The position numbers were made by a program, and so were the translations under genes. From sequence record ON528723: a DNA stretch of 38,729 bases, one strand, 5' to 3'. Below are positions 27,401 to 38,729 of the stretch, piece by piece. This stretch comes from Shigella phage ESh10. The notes below the pieces were generated by a model. That model saw nothing but the letters and a program-made list of their open reading frames with translations. It was not told the origin of the DNA and searched no databases. Position 1 is the first letter of the stretch. Each line of letters opens with the position of its first letter.

Positions 27401-28424
27401 GGCTGCACGCTCTCCTTGGACAATGCTCCTAAACGGAACATCAAACTACATTCTTGATGCTGCCCGTCAGGGTGTGCTTGGGGATGTGGCTGGAGCGGCC
27501 CTTGCTGGGAAAGCCTCTAAGTTCGGTAAGGCAAACTACCTTAAGTCTGCCTCTATCAGCCCTGAGCAGTGGAATGGAATCAAGCAGTTGTTCAGAGACC
27601 ATGCGACTCGTGGAGAAGACGGTAAGTTCACCATTCGTGACAAACAGGCTTTCGCTAACGACCCACGTTCAATGGACTTGTGGCGACTGGCTGATAAGGT
27701 GGCGGATGAGACTATACTGCGCCCTCACAAGGTTTCCTCACAGGACTCCAAAGCGTTCGGTGCAGGGGTGAAGATGGTGATGCAGTTTAAGAACTTCGTC
27801 ATCAAGTCCCTTAACTCCCGGTTCGTCCGTAGCTTCTACGAGGCAACTAAGAACAACCGTGCGTTAGACCAAGCGTTGACTCATATCATCTCCTTGGGTC
27901 TAGCTGGTGGTTACTACGTTGCGCAGGCGCACCTTAAGGCCGCAAGCCTACAGGAGCACAAACGTAAGGAGTACCTTAAGAACGCCCTTGACCCTAAGAT
28001 GATTGCTCATGCATCAATCTCTCGTAGCTCACACTTAGGCTCACCATTGAGTATCTACGATATGTTCGCTGGGATGGTTGGTAGCGATACCTATAAGTAC
28101 ACCCGCTCTACGGTGCTCCCTAAAGAGTCCGAGAAGCGTGACCCTAACAAGGCAGTGACAGGTAGACAGGTGGCTTCGACTATCGCAGGTGCAGTTGGTG
28201 AGCAGGTTCCGGGTTTAGGTTTTGTTGGCTCTGTGGGTGCAACAGCTATTAACGCTGCTTCCCTGCTGTCTTCTCCAAACAAGGCTACCGCTCTGGAGTT
28301 CCGTACAGGACTCTTCAACACCTCTCGTGAGTTGATTCCTAATGACCCGCTATCGCAGCAACTCATTATGAAAATCTACGAGGCCAATGGTATCCGCATA
28401 AAGGAGATTCCGAAGAAACAATAA
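24462..28424 (+). CDS. 16: internal virion (core) protein D with N-terminal lytic transglycosylase domain
   Basis: 1320 aa; N-terminus …LLRKLAFNESSFNPKAKSPTGPKGLMQFT… is a soluble lytic transglycosylase-type motif. Confidence 0.93.
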   Translation: MSYDKNKPSEFDGLFQKAADKHGVSYDLLRKLAFNESSFNPKAKSPTGPKGLMQFTKGTATALGLKVTDADDDDRYNPELAVDAAARHLSDLIRKYDGDELKAALAYNQGEGRNGAPQMQAYDKGDWASISEEGRNYMRNLMDVANSPRKGDLEAFGGITPKAKGIPSGDAFAGIGKKQTVGTDLPESTGFKVEGKEQQAPNVPYAKDFWEKTGTTLDEFNSRSTFFGIGDATSAELHNSVLGVAFRAARSDDGFDLFKDTITPTRWNSHTWTPEELERIRKEVKNPSYINVVTGGSPENLDALIKMANDNYEMDARSADAGVGAKLTAGIVGAGVDPLSYVPLVGVAGKGLKVVNRAFIVGTQSAGLAVASEGIRTSIAGGEAHYVDAALGGLMFGAGMSAISDAIAAGVRRSRGTEVVNDFAPMAHRLEARETALNSGGEDLTRMPSENRVFDREHAGVEYSPLETEPGAVVLPQGQILSDTNPLNPQTLSEFEAVNPERAARGISLGGFTEIGLKTLRSENPTVRSIASDLVRSPTGMESGSNGKFGATASDIKERLHANNQRTYNQLYDAVRIAMKDPEFSTGGATMSRKEIRQEIYKRAALAIERPELQANLTKGERNVMNILKQHFDLKREIMENPSIFGNTKAVSIFPGSRHKGTYVPNVYDRAIKIEMVKRYGNDGLQRAIAESWLTSYRARPEVKARVDEYLMELNGLKSVQEVTPEMVQKHAMDKAYGISHTDQFSASSVIDDNIEGLVGIENNNFLEARNMFDSDMAVTLPDGNTFSVNDLRTYDMAEILPAYDRRVDGDVAIMGGSGKTTKDLKDEIMALDKQSEGNGTLKGEVEALKDTVKILTGRARRNPEGAWGTALRSVNDLTFFAKNAYMGAQNVTEIAGMLAKGNVSAITHGIPMINDWVNRGKPLRASEIKEIHGMVFGKELDQLIRPGREDHVRRLRESTDTSAAVANVVGTIRFGTQELAARSPWTMLLNGTSNYILDAARQGVLGDVAGAALAGKASKFGKANYLKSASISPEQWNGIKQLFRDHATRGEDGKFTIRDKQAFANDPRSMDLWRLADKVADETILRPHKVSSQDSKAFGAGVKMVMQFKNFVIKSLNSRFVRSFYEATKNNRALDQALTHIISLGLAGGYYVAQAHLKAASLQEHKRKEYLKNALDPKMIAHASISRSSHLGSPLSIYDMFAGMVGSDTYKYTRSTVLPKESEKRDPNKAVTGRQVASTIAGAVGEQVPGLGFVGSVGATAINAASLLSSPNKATALEFRTGLFNTSRELIPNDPLSQQLIMKIYEANGIRIKEIPKKQ

Positions 28425-28443
28425 ACCCTCACTAAAGGGAGAG
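28420..28443 (+). promoter_or_regulatory. T3-type phage RNAP promoter
   Basis: aataaaccctcactaaagggagag. Confidence 0.8.
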
Positions 28444-28496: not shown

Positions 28497-30239
28497 ATGG
28501 CTACAACTATTAAGACCGTGATGACTTACCCGCTGGATGGTTCAACTACGGACTTTAATATTCCGTTCGAGTATCTGGCGCGTAAGTTCGTCCGAGTGAC
28601 CCTTATCGGTGTTGACCGAAAGGAACTCATCTTGAATAAAGACTATCGTTTTGCGACTAAGACCACAATCTCCACAACGAGAGCATTGGGGCCAGCGGAC
28701 GGTTATAACCTTATCGAGATTCGTCGGTACACCTCAGCGACTGAACGTCTGGTTGACTTTACGGATGGCTCAATCCTCCGTGCGTATGACCTGAACATCT
28801 CGCAGGTGCAGACCCTCCACGTTGCTGAGGAAGCGCGTGACCTTACCGCTGATACGATTGGCGTTAACAACGATGGTGACTTGGATGCTCGTGGTCGTCG
28901 TATCGTGAACGTTGCGGACGCTAAAGACCACGGTGATGCAATCAACTTAGGTCAAGTCCAGAAGTGGAACGACTCTGCGTTGAACTCTGCGAACCGCGCA
29001 CGGGCTGAGGCCGACCGTGCAACTGTGCGTGCTTCCGAGGCTGCTACCTCTGCGGGTAACTCTGCGAGTTCTGCAAGCCTGTCCCGTGATTGGGCTATCA
29101 AGGAATCGCCGGTGGAAGGAACCTTTAAGTCTTCCCGGTCGTATGCCCTTGACTCTATGGCGTACCGGGATGCGTCCAAGAGTTCTGCTGATGCTAGTGC
29201 TGCAAGTGCTGGTGCCGCGAAGACCTCTGAGATTAACACGAAGAACTCAGAAATCGCCGCGAAGACCTCTGAGACCAACGCGAAGGCCTCTGAGACCAAC
29301 GCTAAGGCTTCCGAGGAACGAGCCATTGAGGAAGCAAATAAGCTGGAGAACATGAATGGATTGGCTGGTGCCCTTGATAGGGTAGATGGAACAAATGTAT
29401 ACTGGAAAGGAAATATTAACGCTAATGGGCGGCTTTTCCTGACCAAAAACGGTTTTGATTGTGGTCAGTATCAACAGTTCTTTGGAGGCGAACCTAACCG
29501 TTACTCTGTCATGGAGTGGGGTGATAAGGACGGCTGGCATTTGTATTCTGAGAGGAAAACCGAAGGCGGTAGGCCAACGCTTAACGTGTTTGGTGATTTG
29601 AGCGTCGGTTTTGATATTCGGGCTGGTGCTACTCAATTTGCTAATCACATGTTTGTACACGACATGGTACAATACTGGCCCGGTGCTGGCAAGTTTGCTA
29701 ACCAGTTGTCTATCCCAGAAGCGCCATTTATCAAACAAGGGAGATACGAGGCCCCATCTGGTAACAGCTTATACGCCCCTATTGTTAAGGGAATCATACG
29801 GACGGCAGGTCACGGGTATAACACAGCGCTGTCCTTTGGTACTCTAACACAGGGTAACGGGTCGTTTGCTTCTGCGTGTATTCATGCGATTGGGGATAAC
29901 GGCACTTCTGGTTTCTGGGAATTTAACCCTAACAATAGGTCCTTCCGTAGTCAAGGTGATGGGCTCTTTGGCAACACTACTGTCTATCAGGATGGTAACA
30001 TCGGTGGCCCTACGTGGGGTGGCGACCTAGCGCAATGGCTCAGAGTAAATACGGTTAACCACATTGCTATGGGTGGAGTCAACCAGTCAACAGTGTGGAA
30101 TAGCTACGGTGTTTCTGATGGTGGCGGTAAGGTAGTAACTGGCGTTGTAAACTCTAACGCTGATGGTGCGATAGACTTTTGTCAGTGGCGTGTTATGCAA
30201 TTCGTTCGTAACGACGGTCAACGCTTTAATATTTACTGA
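28497..30239 (+). CDS. 17: tail fibre protein (T7 gp17-type N-terminal adaptor domain; heterologous-looking distal domain)
   Basis: 580 aa; N-terminus MATTIKTVMTYPLDGSTTDFNIPFEYLARKFV…DFTDGSILRAYDLN is the conserved tail-attachment domain; shaft with heptad-like repeats; distal ~250 aa Gly/Asn/Trp-rich. Confidence 0.9.
   Translation: MATTIKTVMTYPLDGSTTDFNIPFEYLARKFVRVTLIGVDRKELILNKDYRFATKTTISTTRALGPADGYNLIEIRRYTSATERLVDFTDGSILRAYDLNISQVQTLHVAEEARDLTADTIGVNNDGDLDARGRRIVNVADAKDHGDAINLGQVQKWNDSALNSANRARAEADRATVRASEAATSAGNSASSASLSRDWAIKESPVEGTFKSSRSYALDSMAYRDASKSSADASAASAGAAKTSEINTKNSEIAAKTSETNAKASETNAKASEERAIEEANKLENMNGLAGALDRVDGTNVYWKGNINANGRLFLTKNGFDCGQYQQFFGGEPNRYSVMEWGDKDGWHLYSERKTEGGRPTLNVFGDLSVGFDIRAGATQFANHMFVHDMVQYWPGAGKFANQLSIPEAPFIKQGRYEAPSGNSLYAPIVKGIIRTAGHGYNTALSFGTLTQGNGSFASACIHAIGDNGTSGFWEFNPNNRSFRSQGDGLFGNTTVYQDGNIGGPTWGGDLAQWLRVNTVNHIAMGGVNQSTVWNSYGVSDGGGKVVTGVVNSNADGAIDFCQWRVMQFVRNDGQRFNIY
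29217..29322 (+). repeat. approximately 21-bp imperfect tandem repeat (about 4-5 units) within gene 17
   Basis: gcgaagacctctgagaccaac-like units; protein-level repeat AKTSE(T/I)N. Confidence 0.6.
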
Positions 30240-30251
30240 TAGGAGGACGAT

Positions 30252-30776
30252 ATGGGAACTTTACGTCACTATAAGAATTTCGTAAATTACACTCCAGAAC
30301 GCACCAAAGAGAATGCAGACCTTCTAGACCACGGAGTCGGTTTCTCAAAGGATGAGAACGGGAATGACTGGTATGAACTTCGCAATACATTCCGTGAGGA
30401 TACATGGAAACTTGTCTACGCCAAAGATGGTTCAGTTATTCAATGTGAACAGGATGTTCAGGAGTTAGCCGTTCAGGGATCTGCTGGGGTGGTTGAGCTT
30501 GAGGAAATCCCTACTGAGTATTCTCGGTACAATATGGTTCAGTGGGGGTGGGACGGCGATAAGCTAACTTGGCATCCTCGGTACTTTGAGCACAAGAAGG
30601 CCCAGCTAATCTCTATGGCCTCCAAGAAGATTGAGCAGTATGCTGACTTTATAGCTCTTGGGGAGGAGGGATTAGAGGGTCTACTAAATGCGTGGCGAGC
30701 CTATCGCCTTGCTGTATATAAAGTAGACCTTAGTGTTCTACCTTTCTATGACTGGCCCGAGCAACCAGAAACCTAA
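30252..30776 (+). CDS. tail fibre assembly (Tfa-like) chaperone
   Basis: 174 aa; AGGAGG SD 13 nt after gene 17 stop; C-terminus …GLLNAWRAYRLAVYKVDLSVLPFYDWPEQPET matches the lambda Tfa / P2 G / Mu U C-terminal motif (LxAWxxYRxxLxxVDxSxxPxxxWPxxP). Confidence 0.7.
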   Translation: MGTLRHYKNFVNYTPERTKENADLLDHGVGFSKDENGNDWYELRNTFREDTWKLVYAKDGSVIQCEQDVQELAVQGSAGVVELEEIPTEYSRYNMVQWGWDGDKLTWHPRYFEHKKAQLISMASKKIEQYADFIALGEEGLEGLLNAWRAYRLAVYKVDLSVLPFYDWPEQPET

Positions 30777-30835
30777 TGACAACCTCAAGGAAAGACGTGT
30801 AGTCCACGGATGGACTCTTACAAGGAGGACACTAC

Positions 30836-31039
30836 ATGCTGTCTTTAGATTTTAACAACGAGTTAGTCAAGGCTGCACCTATTGTTGGTACAGGTGTTGC
30901 CGATGGCGCTGCGAGGCTTTTCTTCGGGTTGAGTCTTAATGAGTGGTTCTACGTTGCAGCTATCGCCTACACAGTGGTTCAGATTGGTGCCAAGGTAGTC
31001 GATAAGATGATTGACTGGAAACGTGCAAATAAGGAGTGA
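30836..31039 (+). CDS. 17.5: type II holin
   Basis: 67 aa; a hydrophobic segment and a charged C-terminus; T7 gp17.5-like. Confidence 0.8.
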   Translation: MLSLDFNNELVKAAPIVGTGVADGAARLFFGLSLNEWFYVAAIAYTVVQIGAKVVDKMIDWKRANKE

Positions 31040-33589: not shown

Positions 33590-33669
33590 TTATGCATATT
33601 GAGCGCATAAGGAAGCATTGAGACCACGGATGGTCACTTTAAGAAACTCCTTAAGAATCAATGAGTTTG

Positions 33670-33692
33670 AATTAACCCTCACTAAAGGGAGA
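33670..33692 (+). promoter_or_regulatory. T3-type phage RNAP promoter (right-end promoter, phiOR-like)
   Basis: aattaaccctcactaaagggagag. Confidence 0.8.
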
Positions 33693-33832
33693 GAGGGGAC
33701 TTAAAGCTATTATATAGGTTAGTCATTCAGGTTATGCAATGACCCTTTATGCACTTTAAGTCTCCTCTATGATTGGTGATATTATCATTGTATAATCACC
33801 CTACCTTAGAGCAACTGAAAGGAGGTGGCTCA

Positions 33833-33982
33833 ATGTTGCGCTTGCTGATTGCCCTGCTGCGTCATAGAGTCACTTGGCGATTTCTTCTGGTACTTACTGC
33901 TACCCTTGGGTACGCAGGTCTTACTGACCACCTCGGTCAACTGGAAGTGGCCTTTTGCTCTATACTCTCTTGTGGGGATTAA
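33833..33982 (+). CDS. 19.5: gene 19.5 protein (49 aa, hydrophobic)
   Basis: ATG 33833 after AAGGAGG; 49 aa as T7 gp19.5; ORF-track start 33773 lacks an SD. Confidence 0.55.
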   Translation: MLRLLIALLRHRVTWRFLLVLTATLGYAGLTDHLGQLEVAFCSILSCGD

Positions 33983-34076
33983 ATTATTGTTGATGACCGA
34001 CAAGCGGCTCTGAGGGATTCGTAGGTATAGTTTCACTACACCAACTCATCCCTCTAGAGTCAACCATAAAGGTTAT

Positions 34077-34555
34077 ACCTAAAGATGCCCTGTAGTTCGT
34101 AATGGTCTTACAGGGTCTTCTGGTGTCTCCTAGCTATCCCTTCGGGATGCGCCTATGGTCTCACCTATGGTGTGGCCTTACCTAAAGTGGTTGCCTAAAG
34201 AGACCCTTTAAGAATTTACCACAAAAATCTGAATGGGTATCTCACAGTTCAAGAACCCAAAGTACCCCCATAGCCCTCCTAAAGCCACCTAAAGCCAGCC
34301 CTACCCTAGGGTTTAACCTTCGGTTAACCTTGGGTATCTCCTCAAGTGGCCTATAGGATAGCCTAAAGTGTTGCCTAAAGTCAATACCTAAAGAGGTGGA
34401 TGGCTTAAGGAGGACTTGAAGAGTGTCCTAGTGTACCAGTTCGATAGTACATCTCTATGTGTCCCTATCTGTTAGCCTCATAAAGTAAACCCTAAAGCCA
34501 CCACCTAAAGACCAGACCTAAAGCCACCACCTAAAGAGTAGCGCTATCTTAAAGA
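34077..34555 (+). repeat. array of dispersed CCTAAAG-type heptamer repeats typical of T7-family genome ends
   Basis: More than 12 copies of (A)CCTAAAG or one-mismatch variants, e.g. 34077, 34181, 34194 and the run ccctaaagccaccacctaaagaccagacctaaagccaccacctaaagag. Confidence 0.7.
34240..34470 (+). repeat. terminal repeat of the mature genome (single copy here; genome left end at 34240)
   Basis: tctcacagttcaagaacccaaagtaccccc at 34240 matches the extreme left end of T3/T7 DNA (TCTCA(C/T)AGT…); right boundary (~34466-34470, …tgtgtccct) placed by analogy and approximate. Confidence 0.5.
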
Positions 34556-34628
34556 CAACCAGACCGATAGACCAACTGTTAACCTGTAGTGATGCCCTGT
34601 AGTTGTCTATGGTGTCTATCGTCAATTC

Positions 34629-34650
34629 AATTACCCTCACTAAAGGGAAT
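34629..34650 (+). promoter_or_regulatory. T3-type phage RNAP promoter (left-end promoter, phiOL-like)
   Basis: aattaccctcactaaagggaat followed by AT-rich segment. Confidence 0.75.
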
Positions 34651-34704
34651 GAGGTTGATACTTAAAGAGGGAATAAAGATTTAATAAAAGATTTAAATTA
34701 ATGG

Positions 34705-34734
34705 TTGACTTTAAGTTACCTTTAAGGCTATTAT
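34705..34734 (+). promoter_or_regulatory. host sigma70 early promoter (A1-like)
   Basis: TTGACT (34705..34710), 18-nt spacer, TATTAT (34729..34734). Confidence 0.65.
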
Positions 34735-34833
34735 TCATCACGTCAACGGGACAACGGCCTTAAAGCCACTCCCTGAGATACCGGAGTCAACCGGATAAGT
34801 AGACAGCCTGATAAGTCATACGAAAAACAGGCA

Positions 34834-34862
34834 TTGACAACATGAAGTAAACGCAGTAAGAT
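34834..34862 (+). promoter_or_regulatory. host sigma70 early promoter (A2-like)
   Basis: TTGACAacatgaagtaa… -35 at 34834..34839, 17-nt spacer, TAAGAT at 34857..34862; near-identical to T7 A2. Confidence 0.8.
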
Positions 34863-34934
34863 GCACAACATGACGTTAACCACCGCTTCGGTGTCTTCTA
34901 GGCGACTTAAGCGCACCACGGCACATAAAGCGAA

Positions 34935-34963
34935 ACAAAATGGTTGACAACATGAAGTAAGCA
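34935..34963 (+). promoter_or_regulatory. host sigma70 early promoter (A3-like)
   Basis: TTGACAacatgaagtaagcacgg TACGAT; -35 at 34935..34940, -10 at 34958..34963; near-identical to T7 A3. Confidence 0.8.
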
Positions 34964-35184
34964 CGGTACGATGTACCACATGAAAGACACCGAGTGTCGT
35001 AGGTGTAAAAACGCGACATAGTGGATAGATGGCGAAAGCACAAGCGACCACGATAATAAAGAGCTTGTCGCACTTATAACGCAAGTGACGGCTAACACTG
35101 AAATAGCCTCAGCTCGACGAAACTGTAGCCTAAAGTTCTTTAACAATCTGGATAATAGCTCTTGAGTGTACCGTATAAGCGAAT

Positions 35185-35222
35185 AACTCAAGGTCGCACT
35201 GAAAGCGTGGCCTTTATGATAT
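35185..35222 (+). promoter_or_regulatory. RNase III-type processing hairpin upstream of gene 0.3
   Basis: aactcaaggtcgcactgaaagcgtggcctttatgat. Confidence 0.65.
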
Positions 35223-35256
35223 TCACTTAACATGAACTAACATGAGGTAACACCAA

Positions 35257-35715
35257 ATGATTTTCACTAAAGAGCCTGCTAACGTCTTCTATGTACTGGT
35301 GTCAGCATTCCGTTCTAACCTTGATGATGAGGTGAACATGAGCCGCCACCGCCACATGGTGAGCGAATTGCGTGCCGCACCGGGTATCTACGGAGAACTT
35401 GAGTCTACCGATTTGACCGGGTGCTATCGTGAGAGTATCGCACTGGCTCCAACCGAGGAAAAGACCATGCGTTTACTCTGCAAGAACAAAGAGCAGGCAC
35501 TACAGGTAGCTCGCTTAGCTTGCAATGAGTATGAGCAAGATTGCGTACTGGTATACAAATCACAGACTCACACAGCGGGATTGGTGTACGCTAAGGGTAT
35601 CGACGGTTACAAGGCTGAACGTCTGCCGGGTAGCTTCCAAGAAGTGCCCAAAGGCGCACCGCTGCAAGGCTGCTTTACGATTGACGAGTTCGGTCGCCGC
35701 TGGCAGGTGGCCTAA
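35257..35715 (+). CDS. 0.3: S-adenosyl-L-methionine hydrolase (SAMase), anti-restriction protein
   Basis: 152 aa; MIFTKEPANVFYVLVSAFRSNL… recognised as T3 gene 0.3 SAMase, not the T7 Ocr DNA mimic. Confidence 0.9.
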   Translation: MIFTKEPANVFYVLVSAFRSNLDDEVNMSRHRHMVSELRAAPGIYGELESTDLTGCYRESIALAPTEEKTMRLLCKNKEQALQVARLACNEYEQDCVLVYKSQTHTAGLVYAKGIDGYKAERLPGSFQEVPKGAPLQGCFTIDEFGRRWQVA

Positions 35716-35716
35716 C

Positions 35717-35872
35717 ATGAATCGTTATTACATCAACGTACCGGGCTGGGGTGGGTCTCTAACCTGCTACGGATACAACGAACGGGACGCACGGAAACGT
35801 TTTAGAGAACAACACGGATTCGGAAGGCTTCCTAATGGGACGCGCCTATGGCTGGACGCCCGTGATTGGTAA
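35717..35872 (+). CDS. small early protein (51 aa), hypothetical
   Basis: MNRYYINVPGWGG…; ATG 2 nt after the 0.3 stop; same frame as ORF 35525..35872. Confidence 0.5.
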   Translation: MNRYYINVPGWGGSLTCYGYNERDARKRFREQHGFGRLPNGTRLWLDARDW

Positions 35873-35877
35873 GTGAT

Positions 35878-35913
35878 AGACTCAAGGTCGCACTGTATGT
35901 GTGGCCTTTATGA
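35878..35913 (+). promoter_or_regulatory. RNase III-type processing hairpin
   Basis: actcaaggtcgcactgtatgtgtggcctttatgatt. Confidence 0.65.
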
Positions 35914-35939
35914 TTATCACTAAGTATAGGACTAACACC

Positions 35940-36140
35940 ATGAGTAAACTTCTGGCAACATCTAAAATAGAAGGCCAATGCACCGTAACACTGCGTGAGT
36001 ATTACCACGGGTCAATGGGAAGCACCTATATTGTGCGATACGGTAAACAGGTCACACATTGGGTAAACCCGATTTTAGCACAAGAGGATTATCAAGCCTG
36101 TGTGATGCACCAAGCAACATGTGCAGGCTGGAATGATTGA
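35940..36140 (+). CDS. small early protein (66 aa), hypothetical
   Basis: MSKLLATSKIEGQCTVTL…; ORF-track start 35901 lies inside the RNase III hairpin, so 35940 is preferred. Confidence 0.5.
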   Translation: MSKLLATSKIEGQCTVTLREYYHGSMGSTYIVRYGKQVTHWVNPILAQEDYQACVMHQATCAGWND

Positions 36141-36159
36141 CATTACAGGAGGATTGGCA

Positions 36160-36318
36160 ATGGTTATCTTTATCGCTGTCGCACTCTTTGCGGTCGCTGG
36201 CTGGTACTCTGAGTCACGCAAGGCCGCTCGCTATCATCGCAAGATGGTTAAACTCATGGAACACTTGGACGCAGAAGGGCGAGGCCGCGAGGCTATCGAA
36301 CTGGTGAAACACGCATGA
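36160..36318 (+). CDS. small early membrane protein (52 aa), hypothetical
   Basis: ATG after CAGGAGG; single predicted TM helix MVIFIAVALFAVAGW. Confidence 0.45.
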   Translation: MVIFIAVALFAVAGWYSESRKAARYHRKMVKLMEHLDAEGRGREAIELVKHA

Positions 36319-36512
36319 TGATTCTCTTTATCGCACTGGTCTATCTGTGCATCGCAATGTACTTTATGCGAGACTTTAAGCGCGGTCTGGTAATACACAA
36401 GGCAACGCTGAGTTACTTTAAGTGGGGATTCATCCCACGGTTTACGGTTCGTGAACGTAACGGACGCTTTAAGGCCAACAAGGTAGGAGTATTCTACATT
36501 GCTACGCACTAA
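36315..36512 (+). CDS. small early membrane protein (65 aa), hypothetical
   Basis: ATGATGA start/stop overlap with preceding ORF; hydrophobic N-terminus MMILFIALVYLCIAMYF. Confidence 0.5.
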   Translation: MMILFIALVYLCIAMYFMRDFKRGLVIHKATLSYFKWGFIPRFTVRERNGRFKANKVGVFYIATH

Positions 36513-36543
36513 CTCAAAGCACGTAAAGATTGCACTGTATGCG

Positions 36544-36669
36544 ATGGCTTATGGTGCATCGAAACGCAAGGTCAAACGCATCTTAACGAGACACCGCAAG
36601 ATGACCGCACGACAGGCTGCAAGCGCTGTCAAATGGGCTGAATTTACTCTTTACTCTTCTTACAGATAA
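36544..36669 (+). CDS. small basic peptide (41 aa), hypothetical
   Basis: MAYGASKRKVKRILTRHRKMTARQAASAVKWAEFTLYSSYR; no strong SD. Confidence 0.3.
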   Translation: MAYGASKRKVKRILTRHRKMTARQAASAVKWAEFTLYSSYR

Positions 36670-36683
36670 CAGGACACTGAACG

Positions 36684-37793
36684 ATGACTTTCACCGAAGC
36701 ACAAGCCGCACTCGAAGCTATCCGCAACCTACCGATTGAGCGTCTGAACGAGCGCCAGCCCATGCTGGTGGCTCTTGCGGCTGCCATCGTGAACGATGAG
36801 ACCCAAGACGGGCAACTGACGCAGGCAGCAGGAAACACGGCGCTAGAGCACATGGACTACTGGCAGACCCTAGCGGCGCGTATGCGTGATGTTGGTTTCA
36901 TCAAGCTGGGCAATGGTCACTTTAGCGCAGCATATGAGCACGCATTGTTACCGGGCAAGGTCATCAAGGTAGGCTTTAAGAAAGAGGACTCAGGCGCAGC
37001 CTATGCAGCCTTCTGCCGTATGAATCAAGGCCGGGAAGGTATCCCTAAGGTGTATGACATTCAGCGCCATGCTGGTTGTTACACGGTGGTTCTTGATTAT
37101 CTGAATCCGCTTAACTACTGGTGCGATGGTGAGAGTGACAAGATTCGTCACCACTTCAAGGCCGCACGGGAAATCATTGAGGAGGATTGCTTTGATGCTG
37201 CCGAAGAGTACCCAATAAGTGACGGGTTCATTGAGACCTGCAAGGATATCCGCAAGTTCTTCTTAGGCATCGCATCGTTCGACTGCCACAGCGGGAACAT
37301 GATGAAAGACCAGATGGGACGCCTGATTATCACAGACCCGGTATCATTCAGCGCAGACGACAAGTTAAAGCCGGGTGAGTTCCACTGTGACCCGGATGAA
37401 CTCATCGCTGAGATTGAGGCGCTGAGAGCGCAGGAAGCGATTGACCGCTGCAAGGCACGTAAGGCACGCCGTGACCCTAAAGGAGACTTTCAGGTAGCAC
37501 GTAAAGCCCGTGCCAAATGGCGCAGAAAGGCCTCTAAGCGTGAGAAGCGCAACGCTAAGGTACTCGCTAAGATGCGCATGGATGCCAACGAGCAACGTAG
37601 GGCCGAGCCTAGGGCACGTATGTTGTGGGGCGATAAGCACTGGCGCAACGCTTGGGTGCAGCACATGAATGTTGACTTCGCACGGCTAGAACTGTTAGCA
37701 GCCGCACAGATGGCACAGATAGACCACAAGGCTATCGTATGTGGCAAGCCGTTACACATAGACGCATACCTTGACAAGAGACTGCAAGGCTGA
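36684..37793 (+). CDS. 0.7: serine/threonine protein kinase / host transcription shut-off protein
   Basis: 369 aa; T7 gp0.7-like (…LGNGHFSAAY…VIKVGFKKEDSGAAY…FCRM…GIPKVYD…). Confidence 0.9.
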   Translation: MTFTEAQAALEAIRNLPIERLNERQPMLVALAAAIVNDETQDGQLTQAAGNTALEHMDYWQTLAARMRDVGFIKLGNGHFSAAYEHALLPGKVIKVGFKKEDSGAAYAAFCRMNQGREGIPKVYDIQRHAGCYTVVLDYLNPLNYWCDGESDKIRHHFKAAREIIEEDCFDAAEEYPISDGFIETCKDIRKFFLGIASFDCHSGNMMKDQMGRLIITDPVSFSADDKLKPGEFHCDPDELIAEIEALRAQEAIDRCKARKARRDPKGDFQVARKARAKWRRKASKREKRNAKVLAKMRMDANEQRRAEPRARMLWGDKHWRNAWVQHMNVDFARLELLAAAQMAQIDHKAIVCGKPLHIDAYLDKRLQG

Positions 37794-37863
37794 TAGAGTC
37801 TTTTCTTACAGGTCATCATGAGGTGGCCTGAATAGGAACGATTTATCCATAGTGAGGCAAGCA

Positions 37864-38729
37864 ATGAACATCATCGAAACTATCGAAAAGAATGACTTCT
37901 CTGAAATCGAACTGGCTGCTATCCCGTTCAACACGCTGGCAGACCACTACGGCAGCGCACTGGCTCGTGAACAACTGGCTTTAGAGCACGAGTCTTATGA
38001 GTTAGGTGAGCGCCGCTTCCTCAAGATGCTGGAGCGTCAAGCGAAAGCTGGTGAGATTGCAGACAACGCAGCCGCTAAGCCATTACTCGCTACGCTTCTC
38101 CCTAAGTTAACCGCACGCATCGTTGAGTGGCTCGAAGAGTACGCCTCTAAGAAAGGCCGCAAGCCTGTAGCCTATGCACCACTCCAATCACTCAAGCCGG
38201 AGGCGTCCGCGTTTATCACACTCAAGGTCATCCTTGCATCACTGACCAGCACGAACATGACAACCATTCAGGCCGCTGCTGGTATGCTGGGGAAGGCCAT
38301 TGAGGACGAGGCACGTTTCGGTCGCATCCGTGACCTCGAAGCGAATCACTTCAAGAAGCACGTTGAGGAACAGCTTAACAAGCGCCACGGGCAAGTCTAC
38401 AAGAAAGCCTTTATGCAGGTGGTAGAGGCAGACATGATTGGTCGCGGGCTGCTGGGAGGTGAGGCGTGGTCTAGCTGGGACAAGGAAACCACGATGCACG
38501 TAGGGATTCGCCTGATTGAAATGCTGATTGAATCCACAGGTCTGGTGGAATTACAGCGCCACAACGCAGGTAACGCAGGCTCTGACCATGAGGCACTGCA
38601 ACTGGCACAAGAGTACGTCGATGTGTTAGCGAAGCGTGCAGGCGCTCTGGCGGGTATCTCTCCGATGTTCCAGCCGTGTGTCGTACCGCCGAAACCTTGG
38701 GTATCAATCACAGGTGGCGGCTATTGGGC
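37864..38729 (+). CDS. 1: T3-type DNA-directed RNA polymerase, N-terminal 288 codons (3'-partial; continues at position 1)
   Basis: MNIIETIEKNDFSEIELAAIPFNTLADHYG… recognised as T3/T7 RNAP N-terminus; frame continues exactly into 1..1789. Confidence 0.95.
   Translation, partial: MNIIETIEKNDFSEIELAAIPFNTLADHYGSALAREQLALEHESYELGERRFLKMLERQAKAGEIADNAAAKPLLATLLPKLTARIVEWLEEYASKKGRKPVAYAPLQSLKPEASAFITLKVILASLTSTNMTTIQAAAGMLGKAIEDEARFGRIRDLEANHFKKHVEEQLNKRHGQVYKKAFMQVVEADMIGRGLLGGEAWSSWDKETTMHVGIRLIEMLIESTGLVELQRHNAGNAGSDHEALQLAQEYVDVLAKRAGALAGISPMFQPCVVPPKPWVSITGGGYW

What the first reader, a model, noticed from the sequence alone, without database searches (positions are those of the whole stretch)
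30252..30776. Tail-fibre-assembly (Tfa) chaperone gene in a T3-like podophage
T7/T3 tail fibres are not known to need a dedicated chaperone and the canonical map goes straight from gene 17 to the holin. Here a 174-aa ORF with its own strong SD sits 13 nt after the gene 17 stop. Its C-terminus (GLLNAWRAYRLAVYKVDLSVLPFYDWPEQPET) carries the signature shared by lambda Tfa, P2 gpG, Mu gpU and T4 gp38-type chaperones. This suggests the phage has captured a fibre-tip-plus-chaperone host-range cassette from a myo- or siphovirus.
Basis: partly seen in the sequence, partly recalled or inferred. Interest (0 to 1): 0.8.

Follow-up and report, generated by a model that had tools for sequence, protein, structure and literature searches.

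The report
Mu-type fibre chaperone in T3-like phage
A T3-like phage carries, just after its tail-fibre gene, a real gene for a phage-Mu-type tail-fibre assembly chaperone that came in with a Mu-type fibre tip; the same cassette is already annotated in about a dozen T7-group phages and described in the literature, so it is correct but not new.

Summary
ORF 30252-30776 (+, 174 aa) follows gene 17 after a 12-nt spacer holding AGGAGG. It scores above threshold for Pfam Caudo_TAP (41.5 bits against 22.1) and matches PHROG 136 (E 3e-38). It aligns end to end with the solved phage Mu chaperone (5YVQ_B, E 7.5e-10). A confident AF2 model (pLDDT 91) has 5YVQ_B as its only significant fold match.

The window is a permuted, near-complete T3-group (Teetrevirus) genome. 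Its gp17 is a chimera: the Studiervirinae adaptor and shaft run to about aa 347, followed by a Mu-type distal tip. The T4 gp38 part of the claim is not.

It is not new. The same gene (79-97% aa identity) sits in the same slot in 11 phages of three genera. It is annotated as a Tfa in Kvp1 (gene 17.2, 2008), LL2 and others. It is described as a "separate Mu-like Tfa" for Bas103 in the 2025 BASEL paper.

What I add: the co-inherited unit is the last ~80 aa of the fibre plus the Tfa, and the gene is under purifying selection (dN/dS 0.07-0.21). No experiment on it in a T7-group phage was found.

The parts
28421..28442 (+). T3-type late promoter (phi17) that drives gene 17 and the genes downstream
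   Evidence: ATAAACCCTCACTAAAGGGAGA, 1 mismatch to the T3 consensus. There are 12 such sites in the window against 0 expected, and the next one downstream is at 33671. No promoter or terminator above chance lies between gene 17 and the Tfa gene.
28497..29538 (+). Gene 17, Studiervirinae part (aa 1-347): tail-attachment domain and shaft
   Evidence: Pfam Phage_T7_tail covers aa 1-155. The region is 97% identical in nucleotides to Teetrevirus ViciousJeremy up to 29371. A T3/T7-like shaft segment spans 29331-29538 (80% nt to T3; aa 291-347 are 81% identical to T3).
29539..30239 (+). Gene 17, foreign Mu-type distal tip (aa ~348-580)
   Evidence: Identity to T3, AP5 and ViciousJeremy falls to 10-33%. 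aa 356-566 match the Muvirus vB_YpM_3 fibre (32%, E 4e-28). aa 520-572 match Mu/SfMu fibre S (45%; PDB 8JU3_A E 7e-5). aa 482-559 match the TropicalSun fibre. GC is 47.9% against the window mean of 50.7%.
29991..30239 (+). Last ~82 aa of gp17: the part of the fibre that is co-inherited with the chaperone (inferred Tfa docking region)
   Evidence: This is the only part of gp17, apart from the N-terminal adaptor, that is shared with Bas103, Yanou and PGX1 (57-75% aa), whose fibre middles are unrelated (8-33%). It overlaps the stretch that matches the Mu fibre C-terminus.
30241..30246 (+). Shine-Dalgarno AGGAGG of the Tfa gene
   Evidence: Read directly from the sequence: 5-nt spacer to the ATG. 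The equivalent site is annotated as a ribosome-binding site in phage LL2.
30252..30776 (+). Tfa gene (174 aa), Mu-type tail fibre assembly protein
   Evidence: Pfam PF02413 at 41.5 bits. PHROG 136 E 3e-38. 5YVQ_B E 7.5e-10, full length. AF2 pLDDT 91.4, and Foldseek finds 5YVQ_B at prob 1.00, TMt 0.81. dN/dS is 0.07-0.21.
30252..30572 (+). Tfa N-terminal alpha/beta domain (aa 1-~107), inferred fibre-binding domain
   Evidence: It superposes on the resolved N-domain of Mu Tfa (RMSD 2.6 A over 106 columns). It shares the HxKN, EDGxDWYE and DTxKxVY motifs with Mu-type Tfas but not with lambda Tfa.
30576..30773 (+). Tfa C-terminal helical domain (aa 109-174) with the family signature W148..Y151..D159..P169..P172
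   Evidence: The model has helices at 109-135 and 142-156. These columns are invariant across Mu-type, myovirus and lambda Tfas. It aligns to the lambda Tfa C-terminus.
30777..30835 (+). Spacer before the holin, homologous to the T3 gene 17 / 17.5 spacer; it marks the right-hand junction of the cassette
   Evidence: T3 homology resumes at 30787, and the hairpin AGTCCA-CGGA-TGGACT (30801-30816) is conserved in T3.
30836..31039 (+). Class II holin (gene 17.5): the normal neighbour of gene 17, here displaced by the Tfa gene
   Evidence: ORF of 67 aa. The homologous genes are annotated as holin in LL2, AP5 and T3.

Best explanation
The ORF encodes a phage-Mu-type tail fibre assembly protein (Tfa). 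It serves a chimeric gp17 whose distal third is a Mu-type fibre tip grafted onto a T3-type adaptor and shaft.

Shown here:
- The protein is a full-length homologue of Mu gpU by sequence and by predicted fold.
- The last ~55-210 residues of gp17 are homologous to Mu-type fibre C-termini.
- The fibre's last ~80 aa and the Tfa travel together between T7-group genera.
- The gene lies in the late phi17 transcription unit with its own strong ribosome-binding site.
- It evolves under purifying selection.

Inferred from the Mu and Pam3 work (as summarised in PMC9608196):
- Three Tfa molecules dock through their N-terminal alpha/beta domains onto the C-terminal region of three gp17 chains.
- The conserved C-terminal helices associate and bring the three chains into register, so the foreign tip trimerises correctly. 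The native T3/T7 tip does this without help.
- The Tfa may stay on the fibre tip in the virion, as reported for Mu.

The net effect is a portable host-range cassette.
For: Family membership:
- Pfam Caudo_TAP is above the gathering score, and PHROG 136 gives E 3e-38 over 175 of 178 profile positions.
- phmmer to 5YVQ_B covers aa 5-173 against 2-175, E 7.5e-10. A family profile that includes the ORF hits only 5YVQ_B in the PDB, E 4e-92.
- The AF2 model has pLDDT 91.4, with a beta-rich N-domain and two C-terminal helices. Its only significant fold match is 5YVQ_B: prob 1.00, TMt 0.81, RMSD 2.6 A.

Cognate fibre:
- gp17 aa 520-572 match the Mu fibre in 8JU3_A, E 7e-5.
- Both halves of the cassette match adjacent fibre/Tfa genes in vB_YpM_3, SfMu and TropicalSun.

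Co-inheritance and junctions:
- Bas103, Yanou and PGX1 share only the gp17 C-terminal ~80 aa plus the Tfa.
- The foreign segment starts near 29539 and ends between 30777 and 30787, at a spacer conserved with T3.

Expression and selection:
- The phi17 promoter lies upstream, and there are no intervening signals.
- dN/dS is 0.07-0.21.

Independent description: Bas103 is described as having a 'separate Mu-like Tfa' predicted to form a hexamer with the fibre (PMC11990801).
Against: - No experiment on this gene in any T7-group phage was found.
- Binding, stoichiometry and requirement are inferred by homology at only ~30% identity to Mu gpU.
- The AF2 alignment was dominated by Mu-type prophage Tfas, so the fold match is not fully independent of the sequence match.
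- A precedent exists (Alteromonas podophage A5) in which a captured fibre folds without its chaperone (PMC10579305).
- The Kvp1 virion SDS-PAGE paper does not report gp17.2 either way.
Confidence: 0.85

Rival explanations
1. The Tfa is mainly a stable virion component. It caps, or forms part of, the receptor-binding tip (as reported for Mu Tfa, and by analogy with T2-type gp38 adhesins) and so contributes directly to host recognition, rather than acting only transiently during folding.
For: Mu and Ur-lambda chaperones are reported to be present in mature phage and to contribute to receptor recognition (PMC9608196). The BASEL paper models a fibre-Tfa hexamer 'as observed for Mu'. The Tfa is more conserved than the fibre end it accompanies (dN 0.045-0.05 against 0.19-0.29 versus the Teseptimavirus carriers).
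Against: If the Tfa contacted the receptor it should vary with host. Instead it is 82-98% identical in phages isolated on E. coli, Shigella, Leclercia, Serratia and Cedecea. T4 gp38 and Pam3 gp25 are absent from virions. No virion proteomics exist for any carrier.
Confidence: 0.25
2. The gene is a hitch-hiker. It came in with the fibre tip, but the chimeric fibre no longer needs it, as shown for Alteromonas schitovirus A5.
For: The A5 fibre is functional with or without chaperone co-expression (PMC10579305 abstract). About 45 other T7-like genomes carry only a truncated N-domain-like protein in this slot, which shows that the full-length form can be lost or replaced.
Against: Purifying selection is strong (dN/dS 0.07-0.21 at dS 0.12-0.68). 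The ORF is intact, with a conserved strong ribosome-binding site, in all 11 carriers across three genera. T7-group genomes are compact and shed dispensable DNA quickly (general knowledge).
Confidence: 0.08
3. The ORF is not a fibre chaperone at all. It is either a chance ORF or a protein of another function, for example the 'ssDNA-binding protein' label given to the short relatives.
For: Some database records label proteins in this slot 'ssDNA binding protein', 'tail fiber protein' or 'hypothetical'.
Against: Every profile, structure and synteny test points to Tfa. No DNA-binding family was hit. Those labels sit on records without supporting evidence and conflict with each other.
Confidence: 0.01

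Closest known systems
Phage Mu tail fibre assembly protein U (TfaMu; PDB 5YVQ chain B) with fibre S/S'
   Same: Full-length homology (about 30% identity, E 7.5e-10). The predicted N-domain has the same fold. The two-helix C-terminal domain and its signature are the same. The gene sits immediately downstream of a fibre whose C-terminus is homologous to that of Mu S.
   Different: It serves a podovirus gp17 chimera rather than a myovirus baseplate fibre. There is no invertible G segment and no second S'/U' pair. Sequence identity is only about 30%, so no close donor has been sampled.
The same gene in other T7-group phages: Kvp1 gene 17.2, LL2_045, Leclercia 10164-302 gp42, Bas103 (EmilieLinder) Tfa, Yanou ORF48, SPLA4, Seera, PGX1, ESh2/ESh6
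   Same: 79-97% aa identity, the same slot between gene 17 and the holin, and the same ribosome-binding-site arrangement. Most are annotated as tail fibre assembly proteins, and Bas103 is modelled in complex with its fibre.
   Different: The backbones belong to three genera: Teetrevirus (this window), Teseptimavirus and Berlinvirus. The middle of the fibre (aa 151-498) is unrelated in Bas103, Yanou and PGX1.
Lambda Tfa (orf-194) and P2-type gpG
   Same: They share the conserved C-terminal domain and motif. Lambda gives 36% over 90 aa, E 7e-10; P2-like PSP3 gp20 gives 31% over aa 6-172.
   Different: The lambda N-terminal region is unrelated.
T4 gp38
   Same: The functional role (long tail fibre assembly) and the position downstream of the fibre gene.
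   Different: No detectable sequence similarity to this ORF (E 0.85). gp38 itself is below the Caudo_TAP threshold (13.6 against 22.1 bits).
Alteromonas schitovirus A5 / myovirus V22 fibre-plus-chaperone module; Burkholderia podophage JG068 gp41
   Same: Podoviruses that carry a fibre-plus-chaperone module shared with myoviruses (A5), or a putative Tfa between the fibre and holin genes (JG068).
   Different: They belong to different protein families and hosts. The A5 chaperone is dispensable in vitro.

Membership tests
Caudo_TAP / Mu-type tail fibre assembly proteins (Pfam PF02413, PHROG 136) | Profile match above the curated family threshold | tested here: met
   PF02413 at 41.5 bits against a gathering score of 22.1, aa 45-173 on profile positions 4-131 of 131. 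PHROG 136 E 2.9e-38, profile positions 3-177 of 178.
Caudo_TAP / Mu-type tail fibre assembly proteins (Pfam PF02413, PHROG 136) | Conserved C-terminal motif (W..YR....VD......WP..P) in a helical C-terminal domain | tested here: met
   W148, Y151, D159, P169 and P172 are invariant in alignments with Mu-type, myovirus and lambda Tfas. The model has helices at 109-135 and 142-156.
Caudo_TAP / Mu-type tail fibre assembly proteins (Pfam PF02413, PHROG 136) | N-terminal alpha/beta fibre-binding domain with the TfaMu fold | tested here: met
   Foldseek to 5YVQ_B: E 1.9e-7, prob 1.00, TMt 0.81, RMSD 2.6 A, using a pLDDT 91 model. Caveat: the alignment used for modelling was rich in Mu-type sequences.
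Caudo_TAP / Mu-type tail fibre assembly proteins (Pfam PF02413, PHROG 136) | Encoded immediately downstream of the fibre gene it serves | tested here: met
   The gene starts 12 nt after gene 17. The same order is seen in Muvirus, Seunavirus, Myosmarvirus and lambda.
Caudo_TAP / Mu-type tail fibre assembly proteins (Pfam PF02413, PHROG 136) | The cognate fibre has a matching (Mu-type) C-terminal region | tested here: met
   gp17 aa 520-572 match 8JU3_A 426-479, E 7e-5. gp17 356-566 match the vB_YpM_3 fibre, E 4e-28.
Caudo_TAP / Mu-type tail fibre assembly proteins (Pfam PF02413, PHROG 136) | Physically binds the fibre tip (3:3) and is needed for trimerisation | not testable with these tools
   This needs co-expression and pull-down, or a multimer prediction. 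It has only been predicted, for the 92%-identical Bas103 protein (PMC11990801).
T4 gp38-type chaperone | Sequence similarity to T4 gp38 | tested here: not met
   BLASTP E 0.85. gp38 scores 13.6 bits on Caudo_TAP, below the cut-off.
Intramolecular C-terminal chaperone of fibres and spikes (alternative way to fold the tip) | A recognisable chaperone or autoproteolytic domain at the C-terminus of gp17 itself | tested here: not met
   Pfam finds only Phage_T7_tail and a sub-threshold YadA_stalk in gp17. gp17 ends in the Mu-type tip.
Canonical T3/T7 gene 17 (chaperone-independent tip) | C-terminal tip homologous to the T3/T7 gp17 tip | tested here: not met
   Identity to T3 drops from 81% (aa 291-347) to 10-33% beyond aa 348. 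The tblastn match to T7/T3 covers only aa 291-354.

The most novel reading that the evidence does not exclude
The truly portable unit is not 'tip plus chaperone' but a smaller folding clamp: the last ~80 residues of the fibre plus the Tfa. The receptor-binding region lies upstream of it (gp17 aa ~348-498). That region can be exchanged freely between T7-group genera while the clamp stays constant. The Tfa may remain on the virion as a cap, as in Mu. If so, this clamp would be a general adaptor for building chaperone-assisted synthetic gp17 fibres.
Probability: 0.3. Interest if true: 0.4.

Novelty: already known. Interest (0 to 1): 0.15.

Why it matters
The finding shows how a T3-type podophage changes host range. 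It grafts a myovirus-type fibre tip onto its own fibre, and the chaperone that folds that tip comes with it. This is practically relevant for engineering T3/T7 scaffolds: a swapped tip of this class should be moved together with its Tfa gene. As a discovery it adds little. The gene is annotated in public records from 2008 onwards, and a 92%-identical copy was described and modelled in 2025. What remains open is experimental: whether the gene is required, and whether the protein stays in the virion. No such work was found.

Tried and rejected
- **NCBIfam:** no hit for either protein.
- **Single-sequence search of the 5.8-billion-protein set:** only three close clusters, because of the word index.
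- **First AF2 model:** built on that four-row alignment, it reached pLDDT 40 and was discarded as evidence. A second model on 36 sequences from a profile search was confident.
- **IMG/VR scan:** only ~30%-identical relatives, so no close donor was identified.
- **T4 gp38 similarity:** tested and rejected.
- **Klebsiella-phage 136-aa 'Tfa' in the same slot:** I considered that it was the same family. It matches only the N-terminal part of PHROG 136 and fails Pfam Caudo_TAP, so it is a related but distinct short form.
- **Promoter/terminator scan between gene 17 and the holin:** nothing above chance.
- **Literature searches for experiments on a Tfa in T7-group phages:** none found.
- **dN/dS limits:** against LL2 it is uninformative (too few changes), and against the Berlinvirus carriers it is saturated.

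Full report
**Observation**

The window has an ATG-initiated ORF at 30252-30776 on the + strand (174 aa; TAA stop followed by an in-frame TGA). It starts 12 nt after the TGA of a 580-aa ORF (28497-30239). That upstream ORF is gene 17: Pfam Phage_T7_tail covers aa 1-155 at E 4e-58. The spacer reads TAGGAGGACGAT, which places AGGAGG 5 nt before the ATG. A 67-aa class II holin gene follows at 30836.

The window is a T3-group genome. It is 96.7% identical to Teetrevirus vB_YenP_AP5 over the first 25 kb, and it has twelve T3-type promoter sites against none expected. Its last 5 kb carries the early genes (SAM hydrolase, kinase, RNA polymerase), so the window is a circular permutation of an essentially complete genome. 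T3 and AP5 go directly from gene 17 to the holin, so the extra gene is a real departure from the canonical map.

**What the ORF is**

- Pfam Caudo_TAP (PF02413) scores 41.5 bits against a gathering score of 22.1.
- PHROG 136, 'tail fiber assembly protein', matches at E 2.9e-38 over almost its whole length.
- NCBIfam has no model for it.
- Against the PDB, the only real sequence hit is 5YVQ chain B, the phage Mu tail fibre assembly protein U. It aligns end to end (aa 5-173 against 2-175, E 7.5e-10).
- A ten-sequence alignment with Mu-type, other myovirus and lambda proteins shows the family signature: W148, Y151, D159, P169 and P172 are invariant.
- The same alignment shows that the window's protein also shares the N-terminal motifs of Mu-type Tfas (HxKN, EDGxDWYE, DTxKxVY). 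Lambda Tfa shares only the C-terminal ~90 residues (36% identity, E 7e-10).
- T4 gp38 is not detectably similar (E 0.85), and gp38 itself is below the Caudo_TAP threshold.

A first AlphaFold model on four near-identical sequences was useless (pLDDT 40). A profile search then returned 3,197 family members at E <= 1e-8, and the listed top 120 all carry PF02413. A 36-sequence alignment built from these gave a confident model: pLDDT 91.4, a beta-rich N-terminal domain, and helices at 109-135 and 142-156. Its only significant fold match in the PDB is again 5YVQ_B (probability 1.00, target-normalised TM 0.81, RMSD 2.6 A over the crystallised N-terminal domain). The modelling alignment was rich in Mu-type sequences, so this is corroboration rather than an independent test.

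**The fibre is a chimera and the cassette is Mu-type**

Nucleotide comparison gives these junctions:
- Homology to the Klebsiella Teetrevirus ViciousJeremy (97%) stops at 29371 and resumes at 30822.
- A T3/T7-like shaft segment persists from 29331 to 29538 (80% to T3).
- T3 homology resumes at 30787.

The spacer after the Tfa stop corresponds to the T3 gene 17 / 17.5 spacer, including a conserved hairpin AGTCCA-CGGA-TGGACT at 30801-30816. The foreign segment is therefore about 29539-30786 (1.25 kb): gp17 aa ~348-580, the 12-nt spacer and the Tfa gene. Its GC content (47.4%) lies at the 5th percentile of same-sized windows.

The foreign fibre part matches myovirus fibres:
- aa 356-566 match the Muvirus vB_YpM_3 fibre (32%, E 4e-28).
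- aa 520-572 match Mu/SfMu S (45%; PDB 8JU3_A E 7e-5).
- aa 482-559 match the Myosmarvirus TropicalSun fibre.

In each of those genomes the next gene is a Tfa that matches the window's Tfa (E 1e-10 to 3e-24). Both halves of the cassette thus have their non-podoviral relatives as adjacent gene pairs in the same myoviruses. Identity is only about 30%, and neither the phage collection nor IMG/VR holds anything closer outside the T7 group, so the donor is unsampled or the capture is old.

**It is already known**

tblastn finds the same protein (79-97% identity) in the same slot in 14 records, representing 11 phages:
- Teetrevirus: LL2, Leclercia 10164-302 and 10164RH, Seera.
- Teseptimavirus: ESh2, ESh6, Yanou, Bas103.
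- Unclassified: PGX1.
- Berlinvirus: Kvp1, SPLA4.

Kvp1's record (2008) names it '17.2, putative phage tail fiber assembly protein', and the paper lists 17-17.2 as a region that differs from phage Berlin. LL2's record cites matches to lambdoid Tfas.

[quoted passage not shown] That protein is 91.9% identical to this ORF.

Related precedents exist in other podophages. JG068 has a putative Tfa between the fibre and holin genes (PMC3765740). Alteromonas schitovirus A5 shares a fibre-plus-chaperone module with a myovirus (PMC10579305). Roughly 1% of the ~1,000 T7-like records that match this backbone carry the full-length gene.

**What this analysis adds**

Segment-wise identities show that Bas103, Yanou and PGX1 have fibre middles unrelated to the window's (8-33% over aa 151-498). 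They still share the last ~80 aa of gp17 (57-75%) and the Tfa (82-98%). The unit that is co-inherited across genera is therefore the fibre's extreme C-terminus plus the chaperone. This fits the published model in which the Tfa N-terminal domain binds the distal C-terminal part of the fibre and the conserved C-terminal helices drive trimerisation (PMC9608196 summarising the Mu work).

The Tfa gene is under purifying selection: dN/dS is 0.07-0.21 at dS 0.12-0.68. The LL2 pair is uninformative and the Berlinvirus pairs are saturated. The Tfa is more conserved than the fibre end it accompanies.

The gene lies inside the late phi17 transcription unit. The promoter is at 28421-28442, the next one is at 33671, and there are no signals in between. 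It is therefore made together with gp17.

**Mechanism and rivals**

*Best explanation (0.85).* This is a Mu-type intermolecular chaperone that nucleates trimerisation of the grafted Mu-type tip of gp17. Homology, synteny, co-inheritance, expression context and selection are shown. Binding, 3:3 stoichiometry and requirement are inferred.

*Virion-resident cap or receptor-recognition subunit.* This is possible, since it is reported for Mu. The protein's near-constancy across phages isolated on five host genera argues against a direct specificity role.

*Dispensable hitch-hiker, as for Alteromonas A5.* This is made unlikely by the selection signal and by the gene's retention in compact genomes.

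*Non-chaperone function.* This is excluded for practical purposes.

**Verdict**

The feature is already annotated and described, so interest is low. The open questions are experimental: whether the gene is required, and whether the protein is present in the virion.

Noticed in passing
L002:2222-2632 (Klebsiella phage ViciousJeremy) and ~45 other T7-like records; the equivalent slot in the window is 30240-30835: A different, short protein (about 100-136 aa) occupies the gene 17 / holin slot in many Klebsiella, Erwinia, Pantoea and Escherichia T7-like phages. It matches only positions 3-133 of PHROG 136 (E 1.8e-12), fails Pfam Caudo_TAP, and aligns to the window's Tfa only over aa 31-90 (25% identity). 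It looks like an N-domain-only Tfa that lacks the conserved C-terminal trimerisation domain. The published Tfa model does not obviously explain how such a protein could work.
   Followed up: partly
Public records hit: Annotation of proteins in this slot is inconsistent. The short form is labelled 'ssDNA binding protein' in KPP-5, VAC1, Emp27, HZP2 and VR4605. The full-length Tfa is labelled 'tail fiber protein' in ESh6 and PGX1, and 'hypothetical' in Seera. These are probably propagated mis-annotations.
   Followed up: no
window 30801-30816: The hairpin AGTCCA-CGGA-TGGACT lies in the spacer before the holin gene. It is conserved with the T3 gene 17 / 17.5 spacer and marks the right edge of the inserted cassette. 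Its function is unknown; it may be a small RNA-processing or stability element.
   Followed up: no
window 1-38729 (early genes at 33600-38729): The window is a circular permutation of an essentially complete ~38.7-kb Teetrevirus genome. The early genes (SAM hydrolase, kinase, start of the RNA polymerase gene) sit at its right end, and the sequence starts about 4.2 kb into the AP5 map.
   Followed up: partly
window 29331-29538 (gp17 aa 279-347): gp17 is a three-part mosaic. The Teetrevirus (Klebsiella-phage-like) N-terminus and proximal shaft run to 29371. A short T3/T7-like shaft segment follows (80% nt to T3, and absent from AP5 and ViciousJeremy). The Mu-type tip comes last. This implies at least two separate recombination events in the fibre gene.
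   Followed up: partly
window 29991-30776 compared with L004, L019, L020: Against the Teseptimavirus carriers, synonymous divergence of the Tfa gene (dS 0.42-0.68) is much lower than that of the adjacent last 82 codons of gene 17 (dS 1.0-1.8). This hints at a further recombination breakpoint between the fibre end and the chaperone gene.
   Followed up: no
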